From assembly GCA_040830765.1 (NCBI GenBank), contig JBFOMH010000007.1, positions 4,563-68,562 on the forward strand: DNA of 64,000 nucleotides, given 5' to 3'. The stretch is from Puniceicoccaceae bacterium (GTDB lineage: Bacteria > Verrucomicrobiota > Verrucomicrobiia > Opitutales > Oceanipulchritudinaceae). The notes beneath the pieces were generated by a model. That model was not told the DNA's origin, made no database searches, and saw only the letters and a list, made by a program, of their open reading frames with translations. The position numbers were made by a program, and so were the translations under genes. Below, in pieces: positions 18,601-42,572 of the stretch (positions are counted from its first letter, which is position 1; each line of letters begins with the position of its first letter).

Positions 18601-19473
18601 AGGATGGGAATTCAGGTAATCAACCAACGGAGTAAAGAGCCATGCGGTGAGGAACTCGACGGCATCCGTCCGATCGTCCCCATTGGTATCCAAAGCGTCC
18701 AGCACCTGTTCATCTTCATCCGAAGGATCGAAGAATGCATCCGGATACATGGTACCGGTGAATCCATCCGCGTTGGTGTCGACAGGCAGGCTGAGCAGGT
18801 CCTTCACTGTGGGCGACTCAAATAACTTGATTCCCCCGGTGTCCTCTCCTGTCTGCAATAGAATCGGCATCCGGTCGCCGAGCAATTCTTCCCCATTGAT
18901 GAATTGGCTGATTTGGTAACCCAGGACAGCGATCCCATCCGCCAAACCCTCAGTTGCCGCGTCCGCAGGCACATCAACGGAGGTCTGTGAAACGGCGGCA
19001 AGATCAGCAGAATCCTTTTCAATCACTTGATAATAGGCAGACTCCAAAGAAGGCGGACCATTGCCAGCATGCAGTGTCGTCACAAGTTCACTGGGCCAGC
19101 GGGCAGAAAGGTCCACCGGTCCGGAGGTTAATAGAATTTCCCGGGAGGGATTGAAAAGTCTTGCTGAGAAAGCCCCATGGAGTTCCAGACCTTGTTCCAC
19201 TTCGTCATTTGCTTCCGGCTCAATGCTGACTGAAGCGTCGACCCCAGGCAGCGCTTCGTCTTCGACATTGTCAAAGATGCCCTCACTTCGCTCGGAGCCT
19301 TCAGAATCCACAACAAACGATGTCTCGGCATAAGCAACCTCAACGGACAAGGCTGTATCCTCCACAGGTCCATCGAACTCCGCCAGTATGCCCATTCCAT
19401 CTGCGGATAGCAGCAGCCGAGGCTCCAAAGCCTCCAGCTTGCAAGGCCCCATGGACTGGTTGCGGCTTCCCAT
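3661..19473 (-). CDS. Giant (5270 aa) LEPRxLL-leader RTX-type Ca-binding surface protein/adhesin with C-terminal lectin-like (ConA/LamG-like) domains
   Basis: N-terminal KLEALEPRLLLSADG; dozens of GGxGxDxxxG nonapeptides (about 5440-11180); very acidic composition; two related beta-rich C-terminal modules (SGVWSVEKG...DFKFAGIN and SGSWVTENG...DYKFVVVS). Confidence 0.9.
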   Translation of the reverse strand: MGSRNQSMGPCKLEALEPRLLLSADGMGILAEFDGPVEDTALSVEVAYAETSFVVDSEGSERSEGIFDNVEDEALPGVDASVSIEPEANDEVEQGLELHGAFSARLFNPSREILLTSGPVDLSARWPSELVTTLHAGNGPPSLESAYYQVIEKDSADLAAVSQTSVDVPADAATEGLADGIAVLGYQISQFINGEELLGDRMPILLQTGEDTGGIKLFESPTVKDLLSLPVDTNADGFTGTMYPDAFFDPSDEDEQVLDALDTNGDDRTDAVEFLTAWLFTPLVDYLNSHPATTGDIVDFLKGSGIFDNGLDRHLTDFRTSFFDPSGPEVHFNIVDINTGDTTEDPDAELTFVLRFELSVSQDMPIDLGLDADAFRMFPFTGTWENAGQVKVPVTTTLGFRFEFGIHTGGQTSDDVIDAEDFFIRWADPLTVSAQSNVSPLDFHMHVGFLGTEVTGGSLNFNATVETDLIDANDPDLLGFTDAQFGLEKTAGYVTGNSAIPSWNLEHDVGFFLRLGNLGESTPVLVPAGDYVNKAGLQAAINLALADADIDHLVFAVIDGVNHLSFGLWPTLTTNPLGMGNETISSAVLPLNAISGNATFEYSSNVTFLLSENGEVPGVVSLRFADPSETDIGFSEGLTASLVDDLEADLIANSNEFGGDALFTLRVRFDDGTSHQAQVNVTKVSTGDNLGDTDKLVVDLQDALDAALFTNITAGQSGGYLYISGDSSVAGITLLSIDSTYAESGLGFIGPKAVTVQLTGGTVGDTDFDDGDAYTDDTAVFHMRTNLGTFATYVISAAEGRDLLGLIAAINTAISGTGVEAVESSGQVRLKATSDSVWDIQVRVKNQDMDDMVADLQRALNYAGLSGVNALNSGGTIWLQGGAPDDVLEISGTLTFDAGITYSELLVPAAELFEASKGGSSNVQILLPVTVNAGLDDATTGPPDNFQVTDARLVANFDPFNSDKAEYDDVERRFRLIFTYDPNPGLPDQDSPASSVPGPGGISNEIRLVNFGELLNFSILNAESMIGLISSLGTALQQLSQTEVFRDYQIPFADATLSQFFNYADGDGERYGGLIDMLVFDVGVDGLEGPDGTNRLMKLTTIDGTKTLVTTFFTAQSLADRLDFLLGPGLVQAAYHSGNNELTYQLVLEGYGRNIVTDNDRNEDTADGLVPFEFNVPLDPFSKLAPDSAAAAADVSVTISGRTGLAMTMGVDLSPPGFAIFDTTSFDELNGEDGLDFMEVKAVTFPREFDVPRIVPLGGAEREYLYPFLLDVAFSVEVNAGPEVEIVLPGFQKYWSIEDLVNQVNDAIADAGLDAVLVADYDSTTPPDGSLYDTSRIVIAALDPSTDFTIKVNNEYSQQQLGYPVVYPAEVSDVAIKADFIIQTRDGVEHLVSIDDVPGPTMADLIGYLNTIAPFSFEAAYNFLHSGLRLKDITGGTEAFQISTINGSEALLGLGLFLTEPDLLPPPAETELVGNPNVIEGGNIGLTSLDGRFFVRDAEMQLGLSMATVNPGTGVPGSGLYGIVGVDVHVDGSLTAEISADLADPGGPKNQITLEELMKQDFTLYPATVEKLLKLDYDNELGPTDFTPGDVLIGADPGDIAVIATVVASGSTGYLLLSNVTGTFSDDDVIVAPDTGTVAQVNGIPEPEGNFGSFNLVVQVQEGFDDLAFDSDFKALDDAPYTVPFVLVDFGNPYVPTEPSTGGLVLNSLGDLRFLDDYDYDSVRRLVNGLLNVVLDVNTSFTELNKLLPAINRSVGQLLDLTGAFERGAANIEEVLAAAEFAIGPEGFELGLPALRLQDLPQALRGAFGLPDGVDPYGGGGPVNYVKLDYDTGSTELLLSMNLFNEVSTKLGLDIVTGPTSPNLTSAGVLEVYGALAVHLETATDLNSPSQIYLLDSSYIGGGIDVIGEGQEYDIPGGQKGLGLVFRSNVGPLSVFIKDGDVLISFVFILPGLDFGGSGRQLLDTVAYGDWIAPLILADDIEIVLPMFYGGEGPNDFIGEYAASGGIAGLTVTEPDYGDIVDDITEEVVPYDPFENILLAIDTLDLYLELLSDELAGEVLGIDLPFIGDQMADILFIEDFRRALTRTIKNGVENAVDPDPDTIIQSLITAAFTGPLSAYLISGPVQTNNLGPAVPPEDRYREWTFTVGRTDTQAQILTFDDFDIGPDHLLFDMEAPLTVTFDWSIEITFGVDFGNGAYIDVSDADDVDLDLKIELPGTGPFDGELGFLKLDVTDPGGNSGADLVFAVDVKNGTTGEARLGFADIGSLNPEATLTGNRLDGATYAANLHLITKTVSILPVMTSDFIFDWALPTTDVDDLEGDAVTPGIQLIKLDGMEFDALYAVQEALGQPLQKIAEFIEPFMPVIDILTAEIPILSDLAGEPFTLIDLAGLLSDDVDTRFIEAVADILKLIGEIGQLGSLPTLILGDLTLFDIGTPGSNYFNPDPLTGDPLGAEALLLTTPGLNIDSQFSTLISGSSFLTDLGTGNLVDGLTMPIFDPSLGALEIIKMFVNQDATIVEYELPPLSVGFEYLQVFPVWGPLAVSIEINFSFTLDLHSVGFDTYGIRRWAQTDFRNGALILDGFFFSDGETDTSDDPEIIFQFGLVGAAELNLIIARGGVGGGVNALITFDWNDSVADGHVHISEIYGNIEMDGLLGAFDVGGKLTFELFAFLEVSLLGIEEEFPITPEITLLDFGVDFERLPRLGTEEGGVLYLNMGPNAQDRLNGDTSDGNEDFTVTYVSDGKVKVSSSNLGVTSGQEYEGVHEIIAYGGEGNDTITFKNFDADTSDGGSQITGYVFGGVGDDTIVFDGTTASSDTEGFIIIGGLGNDTLKGGPANDVIYGNEGNDTVWGNGGYDILFGDDGRFATTYISSRIQETDGADNMDGGKGDDVVIGAGGSDILRGGDGIDLILGDGGRFAYTMSGEHVDVAGLLPAAYVPVPISSYVEPAIISAGIDAVEDAVLDRIRAANLGLGGNDEIHGDGGNDLVLGGTGDDTIEGNGGDDILLGGKGFDKISGGANNDSIYGGDQADVLYGNDGDDVMAGGSGNDFMHGDGDNDVMKGDTGADVMFGDAGDDQVFGQTEPDLLFGGVDDDLVVGGSSNDIMFGDDGLIAKLATDLDPTVVSIGIGNAALLVGQFHDQDIRTLDLIITDVVNGDGDDILSGDAGDDIMLGGGGNDLFGGDVDPRLPVANTPAPEDVTPISEDVIIGDGGKVTFNERRFRSIETIIGAVDVDANVDGHPFDDIIYGDNGQDYILGGRGSDYLFGGHGKVVDITEPNFEDALGAFRGPTDPEASDNDIIVGDNGELLFADDTHEPNFGHLEMVRTTDEDDVTGGHEYVEGELDNDVIFGGVNGSVDVLFGSDGQDIILGDNGEIDFSLDEALGAGIPDLNTIDLIRSYRDGLGGEDWISGDQGDDVLIGGTAGDLMYGDDATASHGSLDGEDIMLGDNGKVELINDPSYDFDSPDAYLNDITNFGRLYVQVAASEYPTTVDLIATIDDIDEGDPDFDELSEVEAIGGPDTMSGNAKADIMLGGVNNGGTDFMYGDRVVPDSTTIADDADDIMLGDNGLLDFTYAADTDRTTLDLIQSFEDGLGGTDDMSGNKGEDVAIGGTGDDTIYGDDDDASAASADMDDILIGDNADIFLVAVGSASGGDLKVVLDAAVKTIVTTDEDDDDPLDTGGVDTISGNAGGDIIAGGVEGDYLYGDRASPTASTTADDGDDIILGDNGSWEWLSTGRLDEIYGIDIDANNPELFAKFDPAEADTDLTTLDLVTTEQPRNGGRDWIYGDEGSDLIFGGTDLDTIYGDDADEVDFFAVATLNNDVMFGDHGRLYPQYARWYEDPADTALVPALVDGHVFHARNYFAIHTAEADAGEGDVMHGEEGDDIMLGQQGDDRMWGGSDDDDMTGGHNVSGDQGIGGGYDELGETNAGIPEVTVSLNPSNGDLKMNDLMDGGTGNDSMAGDNTIIWRRGDVANPRFRDLTGDQLYTTGPDTITTNITSDKQLDPDQSTGRDVQLVDHDDGIEAIANGRYGQDVMAGGPGADIMYGQLGDDLMQGDGAIESIQNVGVDEEGDPFVSHELEVVDDTTKTPDTDETLYFNIPEAVTDGDDYMEGNGGNDLMYGGLGQDDMIGGSSALFGLDSVNAALLTLTAEQMRPDGSDIIFGGAGVDIDYNDIGDATWYDDIATTYDEQVILTDPTGHANDADFIMGDNANVYRIVETNADPQAPDVFRTYNYDESFTTDEGSEDRGEIRIIPRAMEQLDYTLGGADYATLGQDYTPSGAAIIDGVADNGLADIIHGEAGDDYIFGMTGSDAIYGEGQDDDIVGGYGNDWIAGGTGQDGVVGDDGLLLTSRNSVEGEPLYGIAGLLDRDASPRYSNGDALGELIYTPGEIQIARIHLEGALKKTADLVPFSYEYGWMAMDDEFHDDDTNTPYADDIIFGGLGSDFLHGGSGDDAMSGAGALPDAYVPTFDLDGNPDGVLNLGYNVFQLPNPINPGDTVSLAVLEAGNVLAFNPVDQDGQHLNNRFRAGEFFLYDEYDPRRKILLDPATGELYKLDDGGGVEFLLNFDESAASLGVTRPAGEVPKPTGQQVESYPQVYDDGKDAIFGDNGNDWIVGGTGRDNIYGGWGNDLLNADDKHDINDDGTKVNTVPDTHPTYEDRAYGGAGRDVLIGNTGGDRLIDWVGEYNSYLVPYAPFGQASVSRTLQPFLPEFLYALSAADGADPTRYVDAIGAIIPEPTKNNPNPSRNGEPHGELGMVLQKDFAWQDQTGAPADPQAGNIPGGPRDVLRSAGFNDGSSDGFFADSGVWSVEKGAYLVEPEFRGGDALSVYHVDEYIPNYFEMLASLNPVKPIKGYKSNAYIVFDYQSDTDFKFAGINVSNSKLEIGHRTETEWIVDVQAVYPGSLKAGTNYNVFLALNGSTVTLTVDNKVSLSHVFELRIDAFGIAHGLKDGMVGLGANNSKAMIDNVIVQRLRPPVTFTLTETFEAVSSGLFAEPISGSWVTENGFVTASLGGDVAAIDLIQLDVSPASLIRLAATLTANGEGGFVFDQYGLEDYKFVVVSSDSGEVLIGHRTAKGFFVDAAFADRDLRKGAQDIEVTLKGSTVSVMWNEQLILGHAFNALVTDGSFGILANHGQVAFDEVTFQTDDFAYASEASPAPIDESVSQPVTVLDDLVAPDSESHSSDSNVQPAIHHPAEFYTISAHTVELQTTDPQPVVVGNFWPPQLSSAVTSFAPPLNFINRDYSVMSLVEFKPLNPVSDTVDADNLYSLY

Positions 19474-33131: not shown

Positions 33132-33258
33132 GGCCAGTGGCCATGAAGCCCCGCTACAGCTCTTGGGGCCCCCGTTTGGCAGGCAAGGGTGTGCCGTACA
33201 CCCCAACCCGCTTCCGGCAATGCTATGTCCACCCGGAAGCAACATGGAAACTTGTCCC

Positions 33259-36200
33259 ATGAAAACGATGCGTCTCGTCTACTCGCTTACCCTGTCCGGT
33301 CTCATTCTTTGCCCGCAGACTGTGCTGGCTATTGACTACACCTGGAATGGCGGCACCGGCGACTGGAGCAGTGCCGGAAAATGGACGCCATCTGGCGTTC
33401 CCGCCGATGGAGATTCAGCAACCGTCAACAGCGGAACCGTTACCCTCTCCGGTACCGAGACTGTCGGCATCCTCAATCTGCAGGGTGGCTCACTGACTGG
33501 TCCGGGTTCCCTGACCATGACGAATGCCTTCAACTGGAGCGTGGCCACCATCATGGACTTCAGCGGCATCCTCATTCTTGCCCATGGCGCGACGGCAACG
33601 CTGGACGGCACGGGTAACCATGACATCCGCAACGGCACCATCCAGCTCGAGGGCGATTTGAACCATGTCGGCCCGGGTCACTTACACTTCCACTACGGAG
33701 CCGGCATGGATATCCGTAAGACAGGAGTGGTGGATATCCAGGGTGACCTGGCCTGGAGCCATTATTATGGCAATGCGGCACCCATCACCAACGCTGGCCG
33801 CATCAAGAAGACATCCGGTACCGGACAATTCACCTTCTCCAGTATCACGCCTACCAACACCGAGGATGGTCGAATTGAGGTCCACAGCGGAACCCTGGTT
33901 TTTAATAATGGTGTCAACGGCAGCGGCGTCCTCAATGCATCGAGTGGAGCGGTCCTGCACTCCCCCAACTCCTGCAGCCTGACCAATGTGGACTTGTCCG
34001 GGTTCGGCATCAAGCGCTTCAGCGCAGGCAACCTCACCCTGGCCGGTGATTGCAGCGGTCACAATGTCGAGCTCGCCGGGGCCAAGCTTCTCGGCAGCCA
34101 TACACTCAGTGGCAGCTGGAATTGGATCAGCGGGTTGATTGATGGTACGCCCGAGGACACAACCACCATCGCCGACACCGCCACCTTGACTGTCACCGGT
34201 GAAGGCGATCATGAAATTCGCAACCGCTCCCTGGTCATCAATGGCATCCTCAATCACGAGGGGCCAGGTCGCCTGCATCTCAACTACGGTCCGACGGTCC
34301 AAGTCAGCCTGGGCGGCGTAATCAATATCCAGGGCGATCTTGAATGGGCCCATTCATGGGGGGATGCCGGGACGATAGTCAATGACGGGACGATTTCCAA
34401 GAACGCCGGCGATGGCATCGCTGTCATCAGTAACAATATCATCACCAACCACAACCTGCTCGAACTGACCAGCGGATCCCTGACCCTCAACGGGGTCACT
34501 TTCAACAACATAGGAACAACCCGGATCGACACCGGAACACTTTCCTTTAGTGGCAACGGGACCAGTCCCGGGGAATGGATCCTCGCAGAGGGAGCACTGC
34601 TCACCTTCACCGGCGGCAGTCCGATCATCGGGGAAGTTGCCTCCTTCACTGGTCTCGGTAACGTGAAAATTGCCGGGGCCACCGTTGCCTTCAATGGCCC
34701 GGTCAGGGTGCCCCGCCTGGAGTTGTCCACCGGTACCATAGCCGGATCGGGCGTGCTGTCCGTGACCAAGGCCTTCGGGTGGACCCGTAACTCAATGGTC
34801 AATGGTGCCCTCTCCATTGTCATTGAGAATGGTGCCGTTGGAACCATCTCGGGCGACGGCGACCACGACTTCCGGACCGGCAACCTGATCGTCGAGGGAA
34901 CGCTTGAGCACCACGGACCCGGCAATCTGGTTTTTAATTACGGGGCGACCGTGGATATCGCCATCGGTGGCGTGGTCGACATCATGGGCGACTACGCCTG
35001 GGGCTATAACTGGGGAGACGCGCCCGTCATGACCAACGCTGGAACCTTCGTTAAAAGCGCTGGCTCAGGTGACACCACCATCCAGAACGTCAGACCCACC
35101 AATACCCCCGATGGGACCTTTCAGGCTTTGTCCGGCACCCTTGTGCTTAAAAGCGGCCTCAATGGCGGCGGCACCTTGGATGCGTCCGTGGGCGCGCTCA
35201 TCACTATCCCGGCGTCTTCCAGCCTGACCAGCCTTACCCTGTCGGGCGAAGGCATCAAGCGTTTCACCGGCGGTGACCTCATCCTCGCCGGCGACTGCAC
35301 GGGCAACAAAGTCGAACTGGCCGGGACCCGGCTGCTTGGCAGCCATACACTGAGGGGAAACTGGAAGTGGATCAGCGGCATGATTGAAGGTCAGGACGAA
35401 ACCACCACCATCGCCAGTGGTGCTGTCTTTTCGGTTGCTGGAGAGGGCGACCACGACTTGCGTTACCGCACGGTCCTGATTGAGGGCTTTCTCAATCATG
35501 ACGGTCCCGGACGACTCCACCTTAACTATGGTCCAACGGTCCAGACAACCCTCGATGGCGTCATTAATATCCTCGGCGATCTGGAATGGCCACATTCATG
35601 GGGCGATGCGGGAACCATCATCAATGGCGGGACAATCTCCAAGAGCCTTGGGGATGGCATTGCAGTCATCAGCAACAACATCCTGACCAACAACAACCTG
35701 ATTGAGCTGACCAGCGGCTCGCTGACCCTGAATGGTGTCACGTTCACGAACAACGGCCAGGCCCGGATTGACGCCGGCACCCTCTCCTTCAGCGGGAACG
35801 GCACCAGCACCGGTCAATGGACGACCGCTGAGGGGACCCGTGTCAATTTCACCGGCGGCAGTCCGGTCATCGGTTCAGGCTCCACCTTCACTGGCCTCGG
35901 GGAATGGAAAGTCGCCGGAGCAACTGTCTACTTTGATGGAACGGTCAGTGTACCCAGGCTGGAGTTGAACTCCGGCAAGATTGCCGGATCAGGGATGCTC
36001 AGCGTGACCAAGGCCTTCGGCTGGACAAATGACTCCTTTGTTGATGGCACCCTCTCCATCATCATTGAAGACGGGGCCATTGGTACGATTTCAGGGGAAG
36101 GCAACCACGACTTCCGGGTTGGCAATCTCACTGTCCGGGGAACACTGGAGCACCACGGACCGGGGCAGCTCCTGTTCAATTACGGGGCGACCGTGGACAA

Positions 36201-37809
36201 CCACGGGGTTGTGGACATCAAAGGCGACTTTACCTGGGGCTATCACTGGGGCGATGCACCTACCGTGACCAACGCCGGTATCTTCGTTAAGAGTTCCGGT
36301 TCCGAAACGGCCACGGTTCATAATATCAAGCCCACTAACACGCCCGAAGGGACCTTTGAGGTCTTGTCTGGCACCCTTGCCCTCAACAGCGGCCTGAACG
36401 GTGGGGGTATCCTTCAGGCTGCCGAGGGTGGCTTGTTACACATCCCCACCACCTCCAACCTCACCAATGTCAACCTCCCCGGAAACGGCATCAAGCGCTT
36501 CTCTGGAGGCAACCTTACCCTCGCCGGCTATTGCAGCGGTAATAATGTGGAGCTCGCCGGAGCCAAGCTCTTCGGGAGCCACACCCTCAGGGGCCATTGG
36601 TACTGGATCAGTGGCATAATCGAGGGAACAACAGAGGATACCACCACGATTGCCCCCGGGGCCGTCCTATCGGCCACAGGGGACGGCGACCACGACATCC
36701 GTAACCGGACCCTGAGTGTCGAAGGCACCCTCAACCACGACGGTCCCGGTCGACTCCATCTCAACTACGGCACAAATCTCCGGACCGTCCCGGGCGGGAC
36801 CATCAACATCCAGGACGATCTCGTCTGGCAGTATTCATGGGGCAATGCCCCGGCCATCTCCAATGAAGGCACTATCGCCAAGACTGGCGGTGAGGGCGAA
36901 GTGGTCTTTAATAGTCCCCGGCCAGTTAATAAATCCACCGGCCGCATCGAGTCGCACAGTGGAACCATCCGCTTCCCGGGTGGAGTAACCGAAGGTGGCA
37001 CCTTCCATGCCGCAGAGGGCGCGCAGATCCTTATCGAGAACAGCTCCAGCCTTACGGATGTCCGCTTCAGCGGTCCAGGTATCCAGTTGCTCACGGGCGG
37101 TGATGTTACCCTTTCCGGCGACTGCCATTCGGAGAACCTGGAAATCCACGGGGCCGACATCCTCGGCACCCACACCCTCCATGGCACATGGCACTGGCGG
37201 ACAGGGGAGTTCAGGGGTCCCGGTACCACCACCCTCGCCCCCTATGCCTACCTGCGCCTTATTGGCGACACCGACCACATCCTCCGCGGTCGAGACTTAA
37301 CCAATACAGGCTTCATCTGGCATGAGGGGATGGGCCGCCTTGTCCTCGCCGACAACGCCAGCCTGAGCAACGCCCCGACGGGTGCCTGTGTCCTTGCCAG
37401 TGATTCCTCATGGACAAACGCTGAGGGGCAGGAAGCCACCTTTATCAACAACGGGGTGATCTACAAAATCGGCCAGACAGGGGCCAGCTGGTTCGACCTC
37501 GATTTCCAGAACAACGGCGCTCTCGTTTCCTACATGGGCTGGTTTGTCGTCGAGGACTGGGTCTGGCACGCCGAGCAAGGCTGGATTTACTGCATCATGG
37601 TCGACGACAGAAGTTTGTATTACTATGATGCCGGTGTCGATTGCTGGGCCTGGACCGGCCCGGAGTACTATGCGTGGATTTACTGGTTTTGGCCCATCGA
37701 GAGGTGGAGCTACTGCGTCTGGGCCGTCCCGGGGGAACGGTGGTTCTGGATCTATCCCGAGGATATCCACAAGCCGGAAGAGGAAATGATGCCCCAGCCG
37801 TCCCTATGA
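33259..37809 (+). CDS. Large secreted beta-helix-like repeat protein (~1516 aa) with seven ~200-aa modules and a Trp/Tyr-rich C-terminal domain
   Basis: Signal peptide MKTMRLVYSLTLSGLILCPQTVLA followed by IDYTWNGGTGDW; G/T/N/S-rich repeats; recurring GxHDxR and HxGPGxL motifs. The ORF track start (33163) is probably over-extended. Confidence 0.85.
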   Translation: MKTMRLVYSLTLSGLILCPQTVLAIDYTWNGGTGDWSSAGKWTPSGVPADGDSATVNSGTVTLSGTETVGILNLQGGSLTGPGSLTMTNAFNWSVATIMDFSGILILAHGATATLDGTGNHDIRNGTIQLEGDLNHVGPGHLHFHYGAGMDIRKTGVVDIQGDLAWSHYYGNAAPITNAGRIKKTSGTGQFTFSSITPTNTEDGRIEVHSGTLVFNNGVNGSGVLNASSGAVLHSPNSCSLTNVDLSGFGIKRFSAGNLTLAGDCSGHNVELAGAKLLGSHTLSGSWNWISGLIDGTPEDTTTIADTATLTVTGEGDHEIRNRSLVINGILNHEGPGRLHLNYGPTVQVSLGGVINIQGDLEWAHSWGDAGTIVNDGTISKNAGDGIAVISNNIITNHNLLELTSGSLTLNGVTFNNIGTTRIDTGTLSFSGNGTSPGEWILAEGALLTFTGGSPIIGEVASFTGLGNVKIAGATVAFNGPVRVPRLELSTGTIAGSGVLSVTKAFGWTRNSMVNGALSIVIENGAVGTISGDGDHDFRTGNLIVEGTLEHHGPGNLVFNYGATVDIAIGGVVDIMGDYAWGYNWGDAPVMTNAGTFVKSAGSGDTTIQNVRPTNTPDGTFQALSGTLVLKSGLNGGGTLDASVGALITIPASSSLTSLTLSGEGIKRFTGGDLILAGDCTGNKVELAGTRLLGSHTLRGNWKWISGMIEGQDETTTIASGAVFSVAGEGDHDLRYRTVLIEGFLNHDGPGRLHLNYGPTVQTTLDGVINILGDLEWPHSWGDAGTIINGGTISKSLGDGIAVISNNILTNNNLIELTSGSLTLNGVTFTNNGQARIDAGTLSFSGNGTSTGQWTTAEGTRVNFTGGSPVIGSGSTFTGLGEWKVAGATVYFDGTVSVPRLELNSGKIAGSGMLSVTKAFGWTNDSFVDGTLSIIIEDGAIGTISGEGNHDFRVGNLTVRGTLEHHGPGQLLFNYGATVDNHGVVDIKGDFTWGYHWGDAPTVTNAGIFVKSSGSETATVHNIKPTNTPEGTFEVLSGTLALNSGLNGGGILQAAEGGLLHIPTTSNLTNVNLPGNGIKRFSGGNLTLAGYCSGNNVELAGAKLFGSHTLRGHWYWISGIIEGTTEDTTTIAPGAVLSATGDGDHDIRNRTLSVEGTLNHDGPGRLHLNYGTNLRTVPGGTINIQDDLVWQYSWGNAPAISNEGTIAKTGGEGEVVFNSPRPVNKSTGRIESHSGTIRFPGGVTEGGTFHAAEGAQILIENSSSLTDVRFSGPGIQLLTGGDVTLSGDCHSENLEIHGADILGTHTLHGTWHWRTGEFRGPGTTTLAPYAYLRLIGDTDHILRGRDLTNTGFIWHEGMGRLVLADNASLSNAPTGACVLASDSSWTNAEGQEATFINNGVIYKIGQTGASWFDLDFQNNGALVSYMGWFVVEDWVWHAEQGWIYCIMVDDRSLYYYDAGVDCWAWTGPEYYAWIYWFWPIERWSYCVWAVPGERWFWIYPEDIHKPEEEMMPQPSL

Positions 37810-39978
37810 ATCCTCTTCAGCGGCCCGTTGCTCATCCTTTCCGGATTCCTCCTCCTTGAGCCGTTGAAGTTCCAGCGGGTGTTCGGATTGCATTTCCTCC
37901 TCAGACATCATGCCAGTCAGCCAGGACAGGTTCATTGGGTAGACGTCGGGATTGAAGATGACAAAGTAGAAGTGCCACACGATAATCGCCAGGGTCGCCA
38001 AAACCGCCTCGTAGAAGTGGATCGTCCGGCTGATATCAAAGCCCAGCTTGGTCAGCAGCCCGATGGTCGTGTTCTCGTACCAGAGCAGGAAACCGGTTAC
38101 CGACATCAGGATGCTTCCCCAGATCAGCGCCCAGTACTCCGTCTTCTCAATATAGCTGAAGCGGGCAAAGCGGGGCCGCTCCTTCGAGAGACCGAGATTG
38201 TAGCGCAGGATCATCTTCATGTCGGTGAGATCCTTCCACCTTGGAAGAATGTCATGGAACACCTGTCGCCCGCGCTCGGTGAAGGCAATATAGCCTATGT
38301 GCCACACCCCACTGAGGCACATCACGACTCCGGCAATCCGGTGGACCAAGCCTCTTAACTCGAAGAGATGACCATTGAGCTCACGCAATGCCTCCACCCA
38401 CCAGGCCTCCGGGTAGCGCAGCATGAAGCCGGTTATGCAGAGGATGATGAAACTCAGGGCAAGGGTGCCGTGTTGCAGCCGCTCATTGACAGTCAGGCGC
38501 AGATAGAGACGATGGGGTTGCCCGTCCGGGAGTTGTCGATGCGGCTTTCCCTGGTAAGTCGCCTTCAGGCGTACCTTTTGGAAGAAATCAAGACCATTGT
38601 GAAGGGTCATCCCACCAATGATCAGGCAGATGCCCCAGATGTAGATGGTGGCGATCCAGTAGAGCACCGGCTCCTCCGAATGGGTATCCAAACTGACGTG
38701 TACCTTCCCCCGGGCAAAGCGCTCATTGGCCCCCTCATGGCAATGGCCGCAGGTCTCGGCCAGGTTGTTGGGATGGACCCATGATTCCGGATCATCACAG
38801 GCCCGGACATCATGATAGGCGTGGCAACTGGCACAATTGACCGCCTCCACTGCACCCCCGCGGGTGGCCAGGCCGTGGAAACTGTCCTCGAAGGTCTCCA
38901 AGCGGTCCGCCTCCAGTCCGTAACGCTCGGCAAGGCGCACCGATCCATGGCACTCCCCGCAGACCTGCTCCGCCATGTTGGCCGGGGCAATCGGCGCTTT
39001 GGGATCCGTGTGGTGCATGATGTTGTGCTCCCCATGGCAATCCGTACAGACCGGGGCATCGAGGTAGCCTTTGGCCAGGACCGTGGCATGGATGGAGTGC
39101 AGATAGTCTTCCGCCGCCTTGGGGTGACATTGGGCACACTGGGATACCACCCGTCCCCGGCTCACAGCGGATTCCACATCGGAGGCCCGTCCAACCGAAT
39201 GACTGTCATGGCAATTGATGCAGGTTGGCGCGCTTTCATTTCCCTCAAACAGGGCCTTTCCGTGGACACTGCGTTCATAGGACGTGATGAACGGCGTCCC
39301 GTAGAGAGTCTGGCCGGAAACTTCCGGATTCTCGACATGACAGCTGACACAGAAATCCGCCAGCATTGCCTTGTGATGGGCAAGATCCAGTTTCTGGGCC
39401 TCCACCACCAGGTCGGATGTATGGCAGTCAAGGCAGGTCGGGGCAGTCTCTACTCCCTCTTCAAGCGCTCGGGCATGTGCGCAATGGAGGTACTTAATCG
39501 ATTGTTCCTCATGGCAAATCCCGCAGCGGCTGGTCTGCCGGGCATTGGCAAAGGGATAATCCGGATGGTCACTGCCAAGGATCTGATGAGAGCCATGGCA
39601 GCCGGTACATCTCAGGCGCTCCGTCAAAATGGTTTCCTCGTCCAGATCGTCGAAGCCCTCGTGAAACAAATGGTTCCCGGCGAGGTCATCGTGACAGTCC
39701 AAGCAGCCGACAACCGCCGGGACGATTGGATCCGCGTGCGGCAGGTCGTCCTCGTCTAACCCGGCGTGGCAGTCGCCGCAGTCGAATCCCTCATGGGGAG
39801 TTCCTTCGAAATGCGAATCCGTCACATACAAGGATACTTCCTGCCCTCCACGCTCCATGGTCATGGACCCATCGTCATGGCAGTCCAGGCAGCTCTCCGC
39901 ACCGGCCGGGATTCCCATCATCACCGTCATCAGGAAAGCCGTGCAGCTTGCCCTCAATTCCAAGAAGCGCTTTCTCAT
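37804..39978 (-). CDS. CbcL-like multiheme cytochrome c (13 CxxCH) fused to a diheme cytochrome b (FdnI-like) membrane domain
   Basis: 13 CxxCH motifs counted by eye. The C-terminal TM domain has ERLQHG, VHRIAG, KTEYWALIWG and TIHFYEAVLATLAIIVWHFY. Confidence 0.88.
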   Translation of the reverse strand: MRKRFLELRASCTAFLMTVMMGIPAGAESCLDCHDDGSMTMERGGQEVSLYVTDSHFEGTPHEGFDCGDCHAGLDEDDLPHADPIVPAVVGCLDCHDDLAGNHLFHEGFDDLDEETILTERLRCTGCHGSHQILGSDHPDYPFANARQTSRCGICHEEQSIKYLHCAHARALEEGVETAPTCLDCHTSDLVVEAQKLDLAHHKAMLADFCVSCHVENPEVSGQTLYGTPFITSYERSVHGKALFEGNESAPTCINCHDSHSVGRASDVESAVSRGRVVSQCAQCHPKAAEDYLHSIHATVLAKGYLDAPVCTDCHGEHNIMHHTDPKAPIAPANMAEQVCGECHGSVRLAERYGLEADRLETFEDSFHGLATRGGAVEAVNCASCHAYHDVRACDDPESWVHPNNLAETCGHCHEGANERFARGKVHVSLDTHSEEPVLYWIATIYIWGICLIIGGMTLHNGLDFFQKVRLKATYQGKPHRQLPDGQPHRLYLRLTVNERLQHGTLALSFIILCITGFMLRYPEAWWVEALRELNGHLFELRGLVHRIAGVVMCLSGVWHIGYIAFTERGRQVFHDILPRWKDLTDMKMILRYNLGLSKERPRFARFSYIEKTEYWALIWGSILMSVTGFLLWYENTTIGLLTKLGFDISRTIHFYEAVLATLAIIVWHFYFVIFNPDVYPMNLSWLTGMMSEEEMQSEHPLELQRLKEEESGKDEQRAAEEDS

Positions 39979-40050
39979 TTCCCTCCTCTTTTCCTATAAG
40001 CAGCTCTAAATCTGTTTCAGCATAAAAAAAGCAAATGTTATAGACAATCA

Positions 40051-40060
40051 TATAATTATA
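40051..40060. promoter_or_regulatory. Palindromic TATAATTATA giving overlapping perfect -10 boxes on both strands between the divergent cytochrome genes
   Basis: TATAAT on + at 40051-40056 and on - at 40060-40055, in an AT-rich 153-bp intergenic region. No good -35 was found. Confidence 0.45.
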
Positions 40061-40131
40061 CCCAATACTCGATTTCTCGAAGGCCGGAAAAACCAGCTCA
40101 ATTCAACCCGGTCGTTCAGCAACAAAACCCC

Positions 40132-42237
40132 ATGAAAACCGTAAGCCGCCTACTGACGTTGGCCCTGGTTCTTGCCCAGCCCAGCTTCGCTGACGAATCG
40201 CTCTCCAATGAGAGCTGCCTCGATTGCCACAATGATCCCGGCTGGACCGAGATGCGCAAGGGCAAGGAGGTCTCCATGCATGTCGATCCGGAGGTCTTTG
40301 CCAACTCCCTGCACGGGGACTTTGACTGCATCGACTGCCACGTCGATATCGAGGAAGTTCCGCATGCGGACAAACTGGAATATGCTTCCTGTGCAGATTG
40401 TCATGATGATGTGCAGGATGAGTACGAGCACAGCATCCACGGGGCCATGAAGGTCATGGGCAACGGCGATGCTGCCAGCTGTGGGGACTGCCACGGCTAC
40501 CATGATATCCAGCCCGTCGATTCAATCGACTCCCCTGTCTTCAAGATGAACTTGGCCCGGATGTGTGCCAAGTGCCATGACAACCCGGGTATCACCGAGG
40601 AATACCGCATGCGGGTACCGGAAGCTGGTAGTCACTATGCGGAAAGTATCCATGGCAAGGCCCTCATGCAGTACGGGCTCATCGTTGCTCCCTCCTGCAA
40701 CGATTGCCATGGGGTCCACAACATCCGGAGGGCTGTGGATGAGAATTCCATGGTCCACCACACAAACATTGATGAAACCTGTGGGCAATGTCACGTCGGC
40801 GTGGCTGAGGAATACGCCAAGAGCGTCCATGGCCAGCACCTCGATGATGAGGGGAAGATGGTTGCGGTCTGTAACGACTGCCACACGGCCCACGATATTG
40901 AAATTCCCGGCTCGGCCCATTTCAAGGCCACCAGTGATGAAAAATGCGGAGCCTGCCATGCTGACCGGTTGCACAATTACCACGAGACCTACCACGGCAA
41001 GGCCATGGTCCTCGGCGAGGCCAACAAGGCCCCGGAAGTCGCAGCCTGCTATGACTGCCACGGCCACCACAATATCCTTCCAGAAGAGAATCCAGAATCC
41101 TGGTTGTCGGAAGAGAACATCCTTGCGACCTGTGCCAAGTGCCATGAAGGGGCCAATGCCAACTTTTCCGGCTATGTCCCGCATGCCGACCATACCGACA
41201 AGGAAAACTATCCCTGGCTCTACTATTCTTTCGTCTTCATGACGACTCTCCTCATCAGCGTCTTCATCTTCTTCGGGATCCATACCTTCTTCTGGCTTTT
41301 TCGTTCGGCCTACCTCTTCTTCCATGATTCGAAAACCTTCCATGAGGCCCGCTTCAAGGTGAAAGATGACGGTGAATGGTACACCCGCTTTGTCCCCTTC
41401 GAGCGCTTCCTCCACTTCCTCGTCGTGACCAGCTTCCTGCTCCTGGTCGTTACTGGAATGCCGCTTAAGTTCTACTACACGGACTGGGCCCAGGCCCTGT
41501 TCACCATGATGGGTGGTGTTGATGTGGCCCGCTCTCTGCACCACTTCGGGGCTATCATCACATTCCTCTACTTCGGGCTGCACCTCGGGGACCGGTTGAT
41601 TGCCATCATCCGCAACTGGAAGGTCATCCTGGATCCCGAATCCAAACGCCCCAGCTGGAAGCGCATGATGAACATCGCCTTTGGACCGGACTCGATGATG
41701 CCCAGCAAGCAGGACTGGCAGGACTTCATCGCCCACCAGAAGTGGTTCTTTGGCAAGGGCGAAAAGCCGCAGTTCGACCGCTGGACTTACTGGGAAAAGT
41801 TTGACTACCTGGCCGTCTTCTGGGGGGTCGCGATCATTGGCCTATCCGGCATGATCATGTGGTTCCCAATTTTCTTCTCCACTTTCCTCCCCGGCTGGGC
41901 CATTAATGTCGCCCTGATTGTCCACTCCGACGAGGCCCTCCTGGCAGCCGGCTTCATCTTTACCTTCCACTTCTTCAACACCCACTTCCGACTGGAAAAA
42001 CTGCCCATGGACACGGTCATCTTCTCCGGGCGCATCTCCAAGGCGGAAATGCTCCACGAGCGCAAGCGCTGGTACGACCGATTGGTCGCCGAGGGTCGAC
42101 TCGAGGAACACCGCGTCCGCGACGAATGGGAACGTTGGAAGCGCATCGCCAAGGCCTTCGGATACGGCTTCTTCGGACTCGGGATCATCCTCCTCCTGAT
42201 GATTATTTACGCCATGGCCGTGCGGTTGCTGCATTAA
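40132..42237 (+). CDS. CbcL-like multiheme cytochrome c (11 CxxCH) fused to a diheme cytochrome b membrane domain
   Basis: 11 CxxCH motifs counted by eye; signal peptide; C-terminal ERFLHF, SLHHFG, EKFDYLAVFWG and IVHSDEALLAAGFIFTFHFF. Confidence 0.88.
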   Translation: MKTVSRLLTLALVLAQPSFADESLSNESCLDCHNDPGWTEMRKGKEVSMHVDPEVFANSLHGDFDCIDCHVDIEEVPHADKLEYASCADCHDDVQDEYEHSIHGAMKVMGNGDAASCGDCHGYHDIQPVDSIDSPVFKMNLARMCAKCHDNPGITEEYRMRVPEAGSHYAESIHGKALMQYGLIVAPSCNDCHGVHNIRRAVDENSMVHHTNIDETCGQCHVGVAEEYAKSVHGQHLDDEGKMVAVCNDCHTAHDIEIPGSAHFKATSDEKCGACHADRLHNYHETYHGKAMVLGEANKAPEVAACYDCHGHHNILPEENPESWLSEENILATCAKCHEGANANFSGYVPHADHTDKENYPWLYYSFVFMTTLLISVFIFFGIHTFFWLFRSAYLFFHDSKTFHEARFKVKDDGEWYTRFVPFERFLHFLVVTSFLLLVVTGMPLKFYYTDWAQALFTMMGGVDVARSLHHFGAIITFLYFGLHLGDRLIAIIRNWKVILDPESKRPSWKRMMNIAFGPDSMMPSKQDWQDFIAHQKWFFGKGEKPQFDRWTYWEKFDYLAVFWGVAIIGLSGMIMWFPIFFSTFLPGWAINVALIVHSDEALLAAGFIFTFHFFNTHFRLEKLPMDTVIFSGRISKAEMLHERKRWYDRLVAEGRLEEHRVRDEWERWKRIAKAFGYGFFGLGIILLLMIIYAMAVRLLH

Positions 42238-42572
42238 TTCCCCGCGTAAATCATTCGTTCCCCGCGTAAATCATTCGTTCCCCGCGTTGAAACGCGGGTC
42301 TGATCTCCCGCCATCCCGACGGGATGGCATTACCAATAGGCCCTGGTTTTAACCAGGGCTAGGTGTGGCATTGAATCATTCGTTCCCCGCGTTGAAACGC
42401 GGGTCTGACCTCCGCCATCCCGACGGGATGGCAATATCAATAAGCCCTGGTTTTAACCGGGGCTGGGACGGGCCGCGATACACCATTCGTTCCCCGCGTT
42501 GAAACGCGGGTCTGATCTCCCGCCATCCCGACGGGATGGCATTACCAATAGGCCCTGGTTTTAACCAGGGCT
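42238..42572. repeat. Cluster of three REP/REPIN-like triple-hairpin units preceded by a 20-bp tandem duplication
   Basis: Hairpin A CCCGCGTTGAAACGCGGG at 42281, 42386 and 42493. Each is followed by B GCCATCCCGACGGGATGGC and C GCCCTGGTTTTAACC(A/G)GGGC. TTCCCCGCGTAAATCATTCG occurs twice at 42238-42277. Confidence 0.92.

What the first reader, a model, noticed from the sequence alone, without database searches (positions are those of the whole stretch)
37804..42237. Head-to-head pair of CbcL-like quinol oxidoreductases (13 and 11 c-hemes) in a sugar-degrading PVC bacterium
Seen: two paralogous but clearly diverged multiheme-c + diheme-b fusions, divergently arranged around 153 bp, with no catalytic partner subunits next to them. 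Established: Geobacter CbcL has this architecture (fewer hemes) and moves electrons from menaquinol to periplasmic acceptors for extracellular respiration. Inference: two redox-potential-tuned exits or entries to the quinone pool, suggesting unrecognised anaerobic or extracellular electron transfer.
Basis: partly seen in the sequence, partly recalled or inferred. Interest (0 to 1): 0.62.

Follow-up and report, generated by a model that had tools for sequence, protein, structure and literature searches.

The report
Paired CbcL-type membrane multihaem cytochromes
A marine Opitutales (Oceanipulchritudo-like) bacterium carries two back-to-back genes for membrane cytochromes that probably link the menaquinone pool to a 13- or 11-haem periplasmic chain; they are real and fit an electron-export kit found elsewhere in the genome, but the protein family and the kit are already described in this phylum.

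Summary
Window 37804-39978(-) encodes a 724-aa protein with 13 CxxCH motifs. Window 40132-42237(+) encodes a 701-aa protein with 11. Each has a signal peptide and a C-terminal FdnI-like dihaem-b membrane domain, and they diverge from a 153-bp spacer with no catalytic partner alongside.

The 11-haem protein (P0002) is a true CbcL-clade member: 34% identical over its full length to a Geobacter CbcL orthologue, with six TM helices. The same type is already catalogued in Opitutae (Zhong & Shi 2018). The 13-haem protein (P0001) belongs to a sister clade with five TM helices, and 13 haems is the norm for that clade in Opitutales.

The two clades sit side by side in many phyla, usually in tandem and often next to an ImcH homologue.

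This genome also holds an ImcH homologue, a monohaem cytochrome c, an MtrB-like barrel, an 8-haem periplasmic cytochrome and a 9-haem outer cytochrome on contig C5. In relatives the CbcL-like genes co-occur with these.

The extracellular-electron-transfer reading is therefore genomically supported. Direction, potential tuning and expression remain untested.

Verdict: solid, a new member of a known kind, of moderate interest.

The parts
37804..39978 (-). P0001: 724-aa 13-haem c / dihaem b fusion, sister clade of CbcL ('P1 type')
   Evidence: ORF and translation. 13 CxxCH and 5 TM. PF01292 at 59.6 bits. AF2 pLDDT 87.2, and the top PDB fold is 1kqf_C FdnI with TMt 0.74. 28% identity to Geobacter CbcL. 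116 of the 120 closest database clusters also have 13 CxxCH.
39898..39978 (-). P0001 signal peptide (aa 1-27, ...PAGA/ES)
   Evidence: Hydrophobic N-terminus directly before the first CLDCH. Helix 2-21 with low pLDDT in the AF2 model. The cleavage site is inferred.
38674..39897 (-). P0001 periplasmic multihaem domain: 1 + 6 dihaem modules (CxxCH at 30 | 67,92 | 124,152 | 182,210 | 253,281 | 311,340 | 382,410)
   Evidence: Motif positions, with a regular 25-29 residue spacing inside pairs. Every Cys and His of the 13 motifs is invariant in 113 homologues.
37807..38673 (-). P0001 membrane domain: an extra TM1 plus a 4-helix FdnI-like dihaem-b bundle, then an acidic cytoplasmic tail
   Evidence: TM windows. 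Invariant His 460, 503, 546, 560, 654 and 669. Foldseek hits to 1kqf_C and 6g94_A.
39979..40131 (.). 153-bp divergent spacer; TTATAGACA at 40038-40046 is conserved in two congeners
   Evidence: Sequence. Alignment with G008 and G011 spacers. It overlaps a weak sigma-70-like match at 40041-40069, but the promoter scan was not above background (4 found against 2.3 +/- 1.6 in shuffles).
40132..42237 (+). P0002: 701-aa 11-haem c / dihaem b fusion, CbcL clade ('P2 type')
   Evidence: ORF and translation. 11 CxxCH and 6 TM. 34% identity and 339 bits over the full length to a Geobacter CbcL orthologue. Same clade as CbcL with 100* support. Same haem and TM layout as Opitutae PAW67162.1 and Oter_2603 in Zhong & Shi Table S2.
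40192..41211 (+). P0002 periplasmic multihaem domain: 1 + 5 dihaem modules
   Evidence: CxxCH at 29 | 66,87 | 117,145 | 189,217 | 247,272 | 306,334. It has one dihaem module more than CbcL (247/272).
41212..42234 (+). P0002 membrane domain: TM1, a 4-helix b bundle and a sixth C-terminal TM as in CbcL
   Evidence: TM windows. His 384, 428, 470, 598 and 613 are invariant across P0001, P0002 and two Geobacter CbcL. The WTYWEKFD and IVHSDEALLA blocks are shared with CbcL.

Best explanation
Both genes encode stand-alone inner-membrane oxidoreductases of the CbcL/MtrH/MtoC superfamily.

Shown:
- Each protein has a Sec signal peptide.
- Each has a periplasmic chain of 2n+1 c-haems built from dihaem modules. 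n is 6 in P0001 and 5 in P0002.
- One helix brings the chain back across the membrane.
- An FdnI-type four-helix bundle follows, with four conserved His placed to bind two b-haems, one near each membrane face.

Inferred:
- Menaquinol (MK-7 in cultured Opitutae) is oxidised at the b-haem domain.
- Electrons pass bC -> bP -> the c-haem chain.
- They then reach, directly or through the conserved monohaem cytochrome c, the 8-haem MtrA-like cytochrome inside the MtrB-like barrel and the 9-haem surface cytochrome encoded on contig C5.
- The final acceptors would be extracellular ones such as Fe(III)/Mn(IV) oxides or humic quinones.
- The two proteins and the ImcH homologue would be three parallel exits from the quinone pool, by analogy with ImcH/CbcL/CbcBA of Geobacter sulfurreducens.

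In many other Verrucomicrobiota the ImcH and CbcL-like genes lie in one row. In this genome the module is scattered over three loci, and the P1/P2 pair has become divergent.
For: Architecture.

CbcL relationship:
- P0002 matches a Geobacter CbcL orthologue at 34% over the full length, E 6e-112. That orthologue has 618 aa and 9 CxxCH, with the same length and haem number as GSU0274 in Zhong & Shi Table S2.
- The tree splits with 100* support into a clade holding P2-like proteins, CbcL and P0002, and a clade holding P1-like proteins and P0001.

Partners in the genome, C5 224111-231120:
- An ImcH homologue that is 40-41% identical over its full length to the Geobacter protein. It has the same CX3CH plus 6 CxxCH pattern and 3 TM helices.
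- A monohaem cytochrome c.
- A 718-aa protein (modelled as the 713-aa P0124) whose AF2 model has as best PDB fold MtrB 6r2q_B (E 1.5e-12, TM 0.61/0.66). The next hits are TonB-dependent receptors at about 0.4.
- A 265-aa cytochrome with 7 CxxCH plus one CX4CH and DmsE/GSU2203-type partial hits.
- A 9-haem 707-aa protein.
- CcsBA and an AraC/PocR regulator upstream.

Co-occurrence:
- In the genus, 9 genomes have both P0002 and the porin and 4 have neither.
- In an even sample of 201 good Verrucomicrobiota genomes, 11 have a CbcL-like gene and all 11 have ImcH. Only 2 of the other 190 have ImcH (Fisher 2e-16, not corrected for phylogeny).
- All 8 genomes with the porin have ImcH.

Linkage elsewhere:
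- 41 of 80 species-level loci with a P2-type gene have a second CbcL-like gene beside it, and 30 of 80 have an ImcH-like gene in the same locus, in most directly upstream of P2.
- In G043 the 13-haem gene is 6.5 kb from the ImcH/porin cluster.
Against:
- The cultured congener O. coccoides CK1056 carries both genes and the porin (G007). It is described as obligately aerobic and nitrate-negative (PMC10288369).
- The genome has two haem-copper oxidase subunit I candidates and a CydA-like ORF by motif.
- Zhong & Shi found no sequence feature that separates quinol-oxidising from quinone-reducing members.
- The native direction of the FdnI fold is periplasm to quinone.
- The pair is not physically linked to the C5 cluster in this genome.
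- The co-occurrence statistics are inflated by shared ancestry.
Confidence: 0.6

Rival explanations
1. Same proteins, opposite direction. They act as quinone reductases (MtoC-like) that take electrons from extracellular or periplasmic donors such as Fe(II), reduced humics or a partner cell. The electrons arrive through the porin-cytochrome conduit and enter the menaquinone pool. Oxygen would be the terminal acceptor in an aerobe living at a sediment oxic-anoxic interface.
For: - FdnI, the best structural match, natively carries electrons from the periplasmic side to a cytoplasmic-side quinone site (established knowledge of E. coli Fdh-N).
- CbcL/MtrH/MtoC homologues occur in both Fe(III) reducers and Fe(II) oxidisers, and no sequence feature separates the two (PMC6295460).
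- The cultured congener is described as obligately aerobic.
- Oxidase candidates are present.
Against: - All 11 sampled CbcL-like genomes also carry ImcH. Zhong & Shi report ImcH only from Fe(III) reducers.
- Reducing MK (about -74 mV; from general knowledge, not tested here) from Fe(II) or humics is uphill.
- No Cyc2 or MtoD-type markers were looked for or seen.
Confidence: 0.2
2. They are general periplasmic quinol dehydrogenases, like CymA or NrfH in role. They would serve soluble periplasmic or surface reductases of this genome rather than the porin-cytochrome conduit. Candidates are the tetrathionate-reductase-family octahaem cytochrome (C17 118049-119677) and the HAO-like octahaem cytochrome (C18 73880-75346).
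For: - Both octahaem enzymes exist in the genome. Their flanking genes were not examined, so it is not known whether they have their own membrane anchor.
- HAO-like genes lie near the CbcL-like cluster in two other loci, L113 and L156.
Against: - Conserved neighbours across 80 loci are ImcH, a monohaem cytochrome c, a second CbcL-like gene and outer multihaem proteins, not OTR or HAO.
- Co-occurrence with the porin within the genus is perfect, 9 with both and 4 with neither.
- Co-distribution with OTR and HAO was not tested.
Confidence: 0.13
3. They are gamma subunits of a formate dehydrogenase or hydrogenase, as several database names say ('formate dehydrogenase gamma subunit', 'cytochrome b subunit of formate dehydrogenase').
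For: JGI names for many homologues. Weak NCBIfam hits to TIGR01583 and TIGR02125. FdnI and HyaC are the best structural matches for the membrane domain.
Against: - NCBIfam scores are far below cut-off (51.5 against 115.85; 33.1 against 121.5).
- No molybdopterin or FeS partner lies beside them here or in L001-L003.
- No NiFe hydrogenase large-subunit motifs were found in the genome.
- The fused 11-13 haem domain takes the place where FdnH would dock (inference).
Confidence: 0.02

Closest known systems
CbcL (GSU0274) of Geobacter sulfurreducens and the CbcL/MtrH/MtoC family (Zacharoff et al. 2016, as cited in Zhong & Shi 2018, PMC6295460)
   Same: - A signal peptide, an N-terminal multihaem c domain made of dihaem modules, and a HydC/FdnI-like dihaem-b membrane domain in one polypeptide.
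- P0002 shares six TM helices, five invariant membrane His and long identical blocks (WTYWEKFD, IVHSDEALLA). It is 34% identical over the full length and clusters with CbcL.
- Opitutae proteins with the identical 11-haem/6-TM layout are already listed as family members.
   Different: - There are 11 and 13 haems instead of 9.
- P0001 lacks the sixth TM, is only 28% identical, and lies in a sister clade for which the three Geobacter genomes searched have no member.
- Two paralogues sit together, whereas those Geobacter genomes have one.
- The role at low redox potential shown genetically for CbcL is untested here.
FdnI (PDB 1KQF chain C) and HyaC (6G94): the cytochrome b556 subunits of E. coli formate dehydrogenase-N and hydrogenase-1
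   Same: A four-helix bundle with one His on each of the first two helices and two His about 14-15 residues apart on the last helix, which gives two b-haems stacked across the membrane. FdnI is the top Foldseek hit at TMt 0.74.
   Different: There is no FdnGH or HyaAB partner. An extra N-terminal TM helix with its own invariant His (H460 in P0001, H384 in P0002) links a fused multihaem c domain. NCBIfam equivalog scores are far below cut-off.
Verrucomicrobial porin-multihaem cytochrome cluster of He et al. 2017 (mSphere, PMC5615132), and MtrCAB of Shewanella (PDB 6R2Q)
   Same: Contig C5 has the described set: a large porin, an adjacent periplasmic cytochrome with eight haem sites and an extracellular multihaem protein. 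The porin model's best PDB match is MtrB.
   Different: That paper left the inner-membrane step open ('ET in IM') and described clusters from humic freshwater and soil. Here the host is a marine Oceanipulchritudo-like organism, and the candidate inner-membrane parts are identified by co-occurrence: ImcH in the cluster and the P1/P2 pair elsewhere.
ImcH (GSU3259) plus CbcL plus CbcBA: the potential-dependent set of quinol oxidases in G. sulfurreducens (bioRxiv 10.1101/2021.04.15.440034)
   Same: Several non-homologous or paralogous inner-membrane cytochromes in one genome serve one outer conduit. An ImcH homologue at 40% identity is present.
   Different: The third member here is a CbcL paralogue rather than CbcBA. 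No potential dependence is known.

Membership tests
CbcL/MtrH/MtoC family (Zhong & Shi 2018) | N-terminal periplasmic domain with multiple CX2CH motifs (3-23 in the family; 9 in CbcL) behind a signal peptide | tested here: met
   13 motifs in P0001 and 11 in P0002, each with a hydrophobic N-terminal leader.
CbcL/MtrH/MtoC family (Zhong & Shi 2018) | C-terminal HydC/FdnI-like b-type cytochrome domain | tested here: met
   P0001: PF01292 at 59.6 bits, above the 30.1 cut-off, and Foldseek 1kqf_C prob 1.00, TMt 0.74. P0002: PF01292 at 26.9 bits, below cut-off, but it aligns residue for residue with CbcL and P0001 and keeps all membrane His.
CbcL/MtrH/MtoC family (Zhong & Shi 2018) | Six transmembrane helices (most members) | tested here: inconclusive
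   P0002 has 6, including the C-terminal helix shared with CbcL. P0001 has 5 and ends in an acidic soluble tail. The feature is met for P0002 and not met for P0001.
CbcL/MtrH/MtoC family (Zhong & Shi 2018) | Conserved His in the membrane region as b-haem ligands | tested here: met
   H384, H428, H470, H598 and H613 (P0002 numbering) are invariant in P0001, P0002 and two Geobacter CbcL. H460, H503, H546, H560, H654 and H669 are invariant in 113 P1-type sequences.
CbcL/MtrH/MtoC family (Zhong & Shi 2018) | Sequence relationship to CbcL (family range 28.6-100% identity) and placement with CbcL in a tree | tested here: inconclusive
   P0002: 34% identity over the full length, in the same 100*-supported clade as CbcL. 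P0001: 28% over 581 residues, in the sister clade. The tree is FastTree and the tool warned about long branches.
CbcL/MtrH/MtoC family (Zhong & Shi 2018) | Function: menaquinol oxidation needed for reduction of low-potential extracellular acceptors | not testable with these tools
   This needs genetics and electrochemistry.
Formate dehydrogenase gamma subunit (NCBIfam TIGR01583) / NiFe-hydrogenase cytochrome b (TIGR02125) | Score above the equivalog cut-off, and adjacent catalytic subunits | tested here: not met
   51.5 against 115.85 bits and 33.1 against 121.5 bits. No FdnGH- or Hya-like neighbours. No NiFe large-subunit motifs in the genome.
ImcH (for the C5 224111-225619 partner protein) | Three N-terminal TM helices, a NapC/NirT-like segment, and seven haem sites | tested here: met
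   40-41% identity over residues 25-500 to the single Geobacter homologue of about 503-520 aa in three genomes. Identical motif pattern of CX3CH plus 6 CxxCH. PF03264 hit. I identified the Geobacter protein as ImcH from its architecture, not from a record name.
MtrAB-type porin-cytochrome conduit (for C5 225999-228955) | A large (about 26-strand) outer-membrane barrel encoded next to a periplasmic multihaem cytochrome that can insert in it | tested here: met
   The AF2 model is all-beta with about 26-30 strands (pLDDT 71). The best PDB fold is MtrB 6r2q_B, E 1.5e-12, TM 0.61/0.66. The adjacent 265-aa cytochrome has 8 haem sites and DmsE/GSU2203-type hits below cut-off. Insertion and electron transfer were not tested.

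The most novel reading that the evidence does not exclude
The 13-haem, five-helix P1 type is an undescribed sister family of CbcL. In most of the P2-type loci that hold a second CbcL-like gene, that gene is of the P1 type. The 2n+1 series of dihaem modules (9, 11, 13, 19, 21 haems) would set the physical reach of a rigid periplasmic wire. On that reading the Opitutales proteins would dock directly on the MtrA-like cytochrome. Marine Opitutales described as obligate aerobes, including the cultured O. coccoides CK1056, would then have a cryptic, possibly bidirectional, extracellular respiration.
Probability: 0.2. Interest if true: 0.6.

Novelty: new member of a known kind. Interest (0 to 1): 0.33.

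Why it matters
If the kit works, polysaccharide-degrading marine Verrucomicrobiota that are described as strict aerobes could respire metal oxides or humic substances in sediments. That would alter how their carbon turnover is modelled. A cultured congener, O. coccoides CK1056, carries both CbcL-like genes and the porin homologue (its ImcH was not checked). It therefore offers a tractable non-proteobacterial system to ask why cells keep several parallel quinol exits (ImcH, CbcL type, P1 type) and what extra dihaem modules do. The immediate value is modest, because the family, its presence in Opitutae and the verrucomicrobial porin-cytochrome cluster are already published. This report mainly adds three things: the link between them, the two-clade structure, and a correction of 'formate dehydrogenase gamma subunit' annotations.

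Tried and rejected
- PDB sequence searches with both proteins gave only short multihaem matches and no full-length relative.
- My first ORF caller (longest ORF first) lost true genes to antisense ORFs in high-GC loci. My first merging of tblastn hits fused neighbouring genes. Both were replaced by a non-overlapping best-hit tblastn map.
- The promoter and terminator scan of the locus was uninformative: 4 promoter-like sites against 2.3 +/- 1.6 expected, and no terminators. The spacer aligns poorly outside the genus.
- Pfam gives nothing for the porin, and NCBIfam gives nothing for the aromatic C-terminal tails.
- The control genomes of the genome search do not include Geobacter.
- I considered an obligate P1-P2 heterocomplex and think it unlikely. 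Two good genomes of the same genus (G012, G013) have P2 without P1. Several genomes (G106, G118, G228, and Nibricoccus L002 locally) show only a P1-type gene.
- MtrH and MtoC sequences could not be fetched, so I could not test whether the P1 clade equals the MtoC/MtrH branch. Their published layout (9 haems, 6 TM) resembles the CbcL/P2 type rather than P1.

Full report
**Observation**

- P0001 (window 37804-39978, minus strand) is 724 aa with 13 CxxCH motifs.
- P0002 (40132-42237, plus strand) is 701 aa with 11 CxxCH motifs.
- Neither has CX3-4CH or CxxCK variants.
- Both start with a hydrophobic signal peptide that runs straight into the first CLDCH.
- After the last haem motif, P0001 has five hydrophobic helices and P0002 has six.
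- Pfam finds Ni_hydr_CYTB (PF01292) in P0001 above cut-off and in P0002 just below it. Both also match cytochrome c7/c3/paired-CXXCH families.
- The two proteins are 27% identical over their whole length.
- The spacer is 153 bp and AT-rich.
- The flanking genes are HlyIII, a 1548-aa repeat protein without Pfam hits, a GFO/IDH/MocA fusion, ThuA, sugar kinases and malate/lactate dehydrogenase. None is a catalytic redox partner.
- These are the only two PF01292 genes in the 3.99-Mb, 97%-complete genome.

**What organism**

The closest named proteins come from Oceanipulchritudo and other Opitutales/Puniceicoccales. The locus is syntenic with O. coccoides CK1056. There the same two genes face away from each other but are separated by 2-Hacid_dh, TamB and an Omp85 gene. 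That genome is G007, 'same genus' in the genome search.

**Relation to CbcL**

I reached three Geobacter genomes through a PpcA search and searched them with P0001. Each has a single homologue.

The G. hydrogenophilus protein has 618 aa and 9 CxxCH at 35-258. That is the same length and haem number as GSU0274 (619 aa) in Zhong & Shi's Table S2. I therefore treat it as a CbcL orthologue.

| Comparison | Identity | Score |
|---|---|---|
| P0002 vs Geobacter CbcL | 34%, end to end | 339 bits, E 6e-112 |
| P0001 vs Geobacter CbcL | 28% | 195 bits |
| P0001 vs P0002 | 27% | 230 bits |

- The membrane halves of P0002 and CbcL are nearly co-linear and share the sixth C-terminal helix.
- P0002 is thus closer to Geobacter CbcL than to its own neighbour.
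- A four-way alignment shows five invariant membrane His. In P0002 numbering these are 384, 428, 470, 598 and 613.
- Their positions match the FdnI pattern. One His lies at the cytoplasmic start of the first bundle helix and one at the periplasmic start of the second. Two more lie 15 residues apart on the last helix. That is the arrangement for two b-haems stacked across the membrane.
- The fifth invariant His sits in the extra helix that links the haem domain to the bundle. Its role is unknown.
- An AF2 model of P0001 built on 113 homologues is confident (pLDDT 87.2, pTM 0.73).
- The best PDB fold match of that model is FdnI (1kqf_C, prob 1.00, TMt 0.74), followed by HyaC.

**Two old clades, not a local duplication**

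A scan of species-representative genomes with a P0002/CbcL profile hit at least 592 relatives.
- The best 80 are mostly Verrucomicrobiota at about 60% identity.
- Planctomycetota, Gemmatimonadota and Myxococcota follow at about 50%.
- Acidobacteriota, Zixibacteria, Krumholzibacteria and Ignavibacteria follow at about 42%.

Full-length ORFs extracted from those 80 loci show these haem counts:

| Type | Source | Haem counts (number of sequences) |
|---|---|---|
| P2-like | ORFs from the 80 loci | 11 (51), 19 (16), 10 (7), 21 (1) |
| P1-like | neighbours in those loci | 9 (24), 11 (4), 12 (1), 16 (1) |
| P1 type | the 120 closest database clusters to P0001 | 13 (116), 12 (3), 18 (1) |

- The motif spacing shows one N-terminal haem plus n dihaem modules. 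n is 4 in CbcL, 5 in P0002 and 6 in P0001; 19- and 21-haem relatives fit the same 2n+1 series with n = 9 and 10.
- A tree of 86 sequences splits with 100* support into two clades. One holds the P2-like proteins, Geobacter CbcL and P0002. The other holds the 9-haem P1-like proteins, the Opitutales 13-haem proteins and P0001.
- The tree was built with FastTree and the tool warned about long branches, so the split is good evidence but not final.
- A tblastn map of the 80 loci shows a second CbcL-like gene beside the P2-type gene in 41 of them. It is in tandem in 37, divergent in 3 and convergent in 1. Many of the remaining loci end at a contig edge.
- An ImcH-like gene lies in 30 of the loci, in most directly upstream of P2, and a monohaem cytochrome c lies nearby in 26.
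- The common verrucomicrobial order is monohaem c, ImcH-like, P2 (11 haems), P1 (9 haems). Sometimes an outer multihaem gene follows, and a 4-haem/NrfC/NrfD module precedes.
- The head-to-head form seen here recurs in congeners G008 and G011, in a 2-Mb Opitutales contig (L003), and in Akkermansiaceae/Luteolibacter loci.

**Partners in this genome**

It has them. Contig C5 224111-231120 encodes, on one strand:
- **An ImcH homologue.** It has 502 aa and three N-terminal helices. It is 40-41% identical over residues 25-500 to the single Geobacter homologue, with the identical CX3CH plus six CxxCH pattern.
- **A 110-aa monohaem cytochrome c.**
- **A 718-aa protein with no Pfam hit.** It was modelled as the 713-aa P0124. 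Its AF2 model is an all-beta barrel of about 26-30 strands. The best PDB fold match is MtrB of the Mtr complex (6r2q_B, E 1.5e-12, TM 0.61/0.66). The TonB-dependent receptors that follow score about 0.4.
- **A 265-aa periplasmic cytochrome.** It has seven CxxCH and one CX4CH, and partial DmsE/GSU2203 decahaem hits.
- **A 707-aa nine-haem protein.**

Upstream lie an AraC/PocR-type regulator and CcsBA-like cytochrome c biogenesis genes. This matches the 'novel porin-multihaem cytochrome' cluster that He et al. 2017 described in Verrucomicrobia. They reported an eight-haem periplasmic cytochrome, a porin of at least 20 strands and an extracellular multihaem protein, and left the inner-membrane step open.

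A monohaem c, 4-haem, NrfC and NrfD module lies on C27. It is the counterpart of the module seen upstream of ImcH in other Verrucomicrobia. The kit is therefore complete but dispersed over three contigs.

**Co-occurrence**

- Within the genus, nine genomes have both P0002 and the porin, and four have neither.
- In an even sample of 201 high-quality Verrucomicrobiota genomes, only 11 (5%) have any CbcL-like gene.
- All 11 have the ImcH homologue, against 2 of the other 190. Fisher's test gives 2e-16 but is not corrected for phylogeny.
- All eight genomes with a detectable porin homologue have ImcH.
- In G043 and G106 the CbcL-like gene lies within a few kilobases of the ImcH/porin genes.
- P1 and P2 do occur without each other. 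G012 and G013 have P2 only. G106, G118 and G228 appear to have P1 only. An obligate heterocomplex is therefore unlikely.

**Mechanism**

Shown:
- the domain order and the topology implied by signal peptide and helix count;
- the conservation of all haem-binding Cys and His and of the b-haem ligands;
- the FdnI fold;
- membership of P0002 in the CbcL clade;
- the presence and co-distribution of ImcH and an MtrB-like conduit.

Inferred:
- Menaquinol is oxidised at the b-domain. MK-7 is the quinone of cultured Opitutae.
- Electrons then run through bC, bP and the c-haem chain to the monohaem cytochrome c or directly to the 8-haem cytochrome.
- They pass through the barrel to the nine-haem protein and on to an external acceptor.
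- If the quinol site lies on the cytoplasmic side as in FdnI, outward flow would consume membrane potential. That could help reach low-potential acceptors. This last point is speculation by analogy.

The opposite direction of flow cannot be excluded. Zhong & Shi found family members in both Fe(III) reducers and Fe(II) oxidisers, with no distinguishing sequence feature. O. coccoides is described as obligately aerobic.

**What is known already**

- Zhong & Shi 2018 list CbcL/MtrH/MtoC homologues in 15 phyla, including four in Verrucomicrobia, with 3-23 haems.
- Their Table S2 contains an Opitutae protein (PAW67162.1, 706 aa) and Opitutus terrae Oter_2603 (729 aa). Both have the same 11-haem/6-TM layout as P0002. 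The table also lists an O. terrae ImcH homologue.
- FeGenie-type surveys routinely flag CbcL homologues in lake bacteria.
- Earlier notes of this scan describe the tandem 11-haem plus 9-haem pair and the ImcH neighbour in other Verrucomicrobiota, and judged them ordinary. My independent maps agree.
- I did not find in the papers I read any description of the P1 clade as a separate lineage, the 13-haem Opitutales form, the 2n+1 module series, or the statistical link of these proteins to the He et al. conduit.
- Many homologues are named 'formate dehydrogenase gamma subunit' by one source. The sub-threshold NCBIfam scores and the missing partners do not support that name.

**Verdict**

The finding is a new member of a known kind. 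Interest is moderate to low, raised a little by the existence of a cultured congener, described as aerobic, in which the prediction can be tested.

Noticed in passing
window 33163-37809 (+): A 1548-aa secreted-looking repeat protein, convergent with P0001, with no Pfam hit. Its last ~130 aa are W/Y-rich and match 12 other ORFs of the genome, including the 9-haem outer cytochrome. It is absent from this position in O. coccoides, so it is probably not part of the cytochrome module.
   Followed up: partly
window 42267-42572: Directly after the P0002 stop codon lie three tandem ~94-nt units, 104-108 nt apart. Each holds three perfect or near-perfect palindromic hairpins (CCCGCGTTGAAACGCGGG, GCCATCCCGACGGGATGGC, GCCCTGGTTTTAACCAGGGC). 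This is a REP-like array that may end or stabilise the transcript.
   Followed up: partly
G000 C17 118049-119677 and many other ORFs: The last ~90 aa of the tetrathionate-reductase-family octahaem cytochrome are an aromatic-rich tail shared with at least 51 ORFs of this genome. It has no NCBIfam match. It looks like a lineage-specific C-terminal sorting or anchoring domain.
   Followed up: partly
G000 C27 91002-94148: A monohaem cytochrome c (minus strand) lies next to a 4-haem 186-aa cytochrome, an NrfC-like 4Fe-4S protein and an NrfD membrane protein. The NrfC-like protein matches by BLAST, and the others match by gene order, the module upstream of the ImcH/CbcL-like genes in other Verrucomicrobiota loci L096 and L111.
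   Followed up: partly
P0001 H460 / P0002 H384 (window about 38599-38601 and 41281-41283): There is an invariant His in the extra linker TM helix. It is conserved in both clades and in Geobacter CbcL, in addition to the four FdnI-type b-haem ligands. Its role is unknown; a quinol site or an extra ligand are possibilities.
   Followed up: no
window 3661-19473 (-) and G000 C5 130168-175242 (-): Giant ORFs of 5270 aa and 15024 aa appear in the ORF lists. They were not examined.
   Followed up: no
G003 (Geobacter argillaceus) C4 39387-40850 and 49505-51151: In this Geobacter the ImcH and CbcL homologues lie only about 9 kb apart on the same strand. That is a looser version of the adjacency common in other phyla.
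   Followed up: no
G000 C18 73880-75346 and C5 38946-41084: There is an HAO/HDH-like octahaem cytochrome (weak hydrazine-dehydrogenase family hit) and an 8-haem cytochrome fused to TPR repeats. Their functions and partners were not examined.
   Followed up: no
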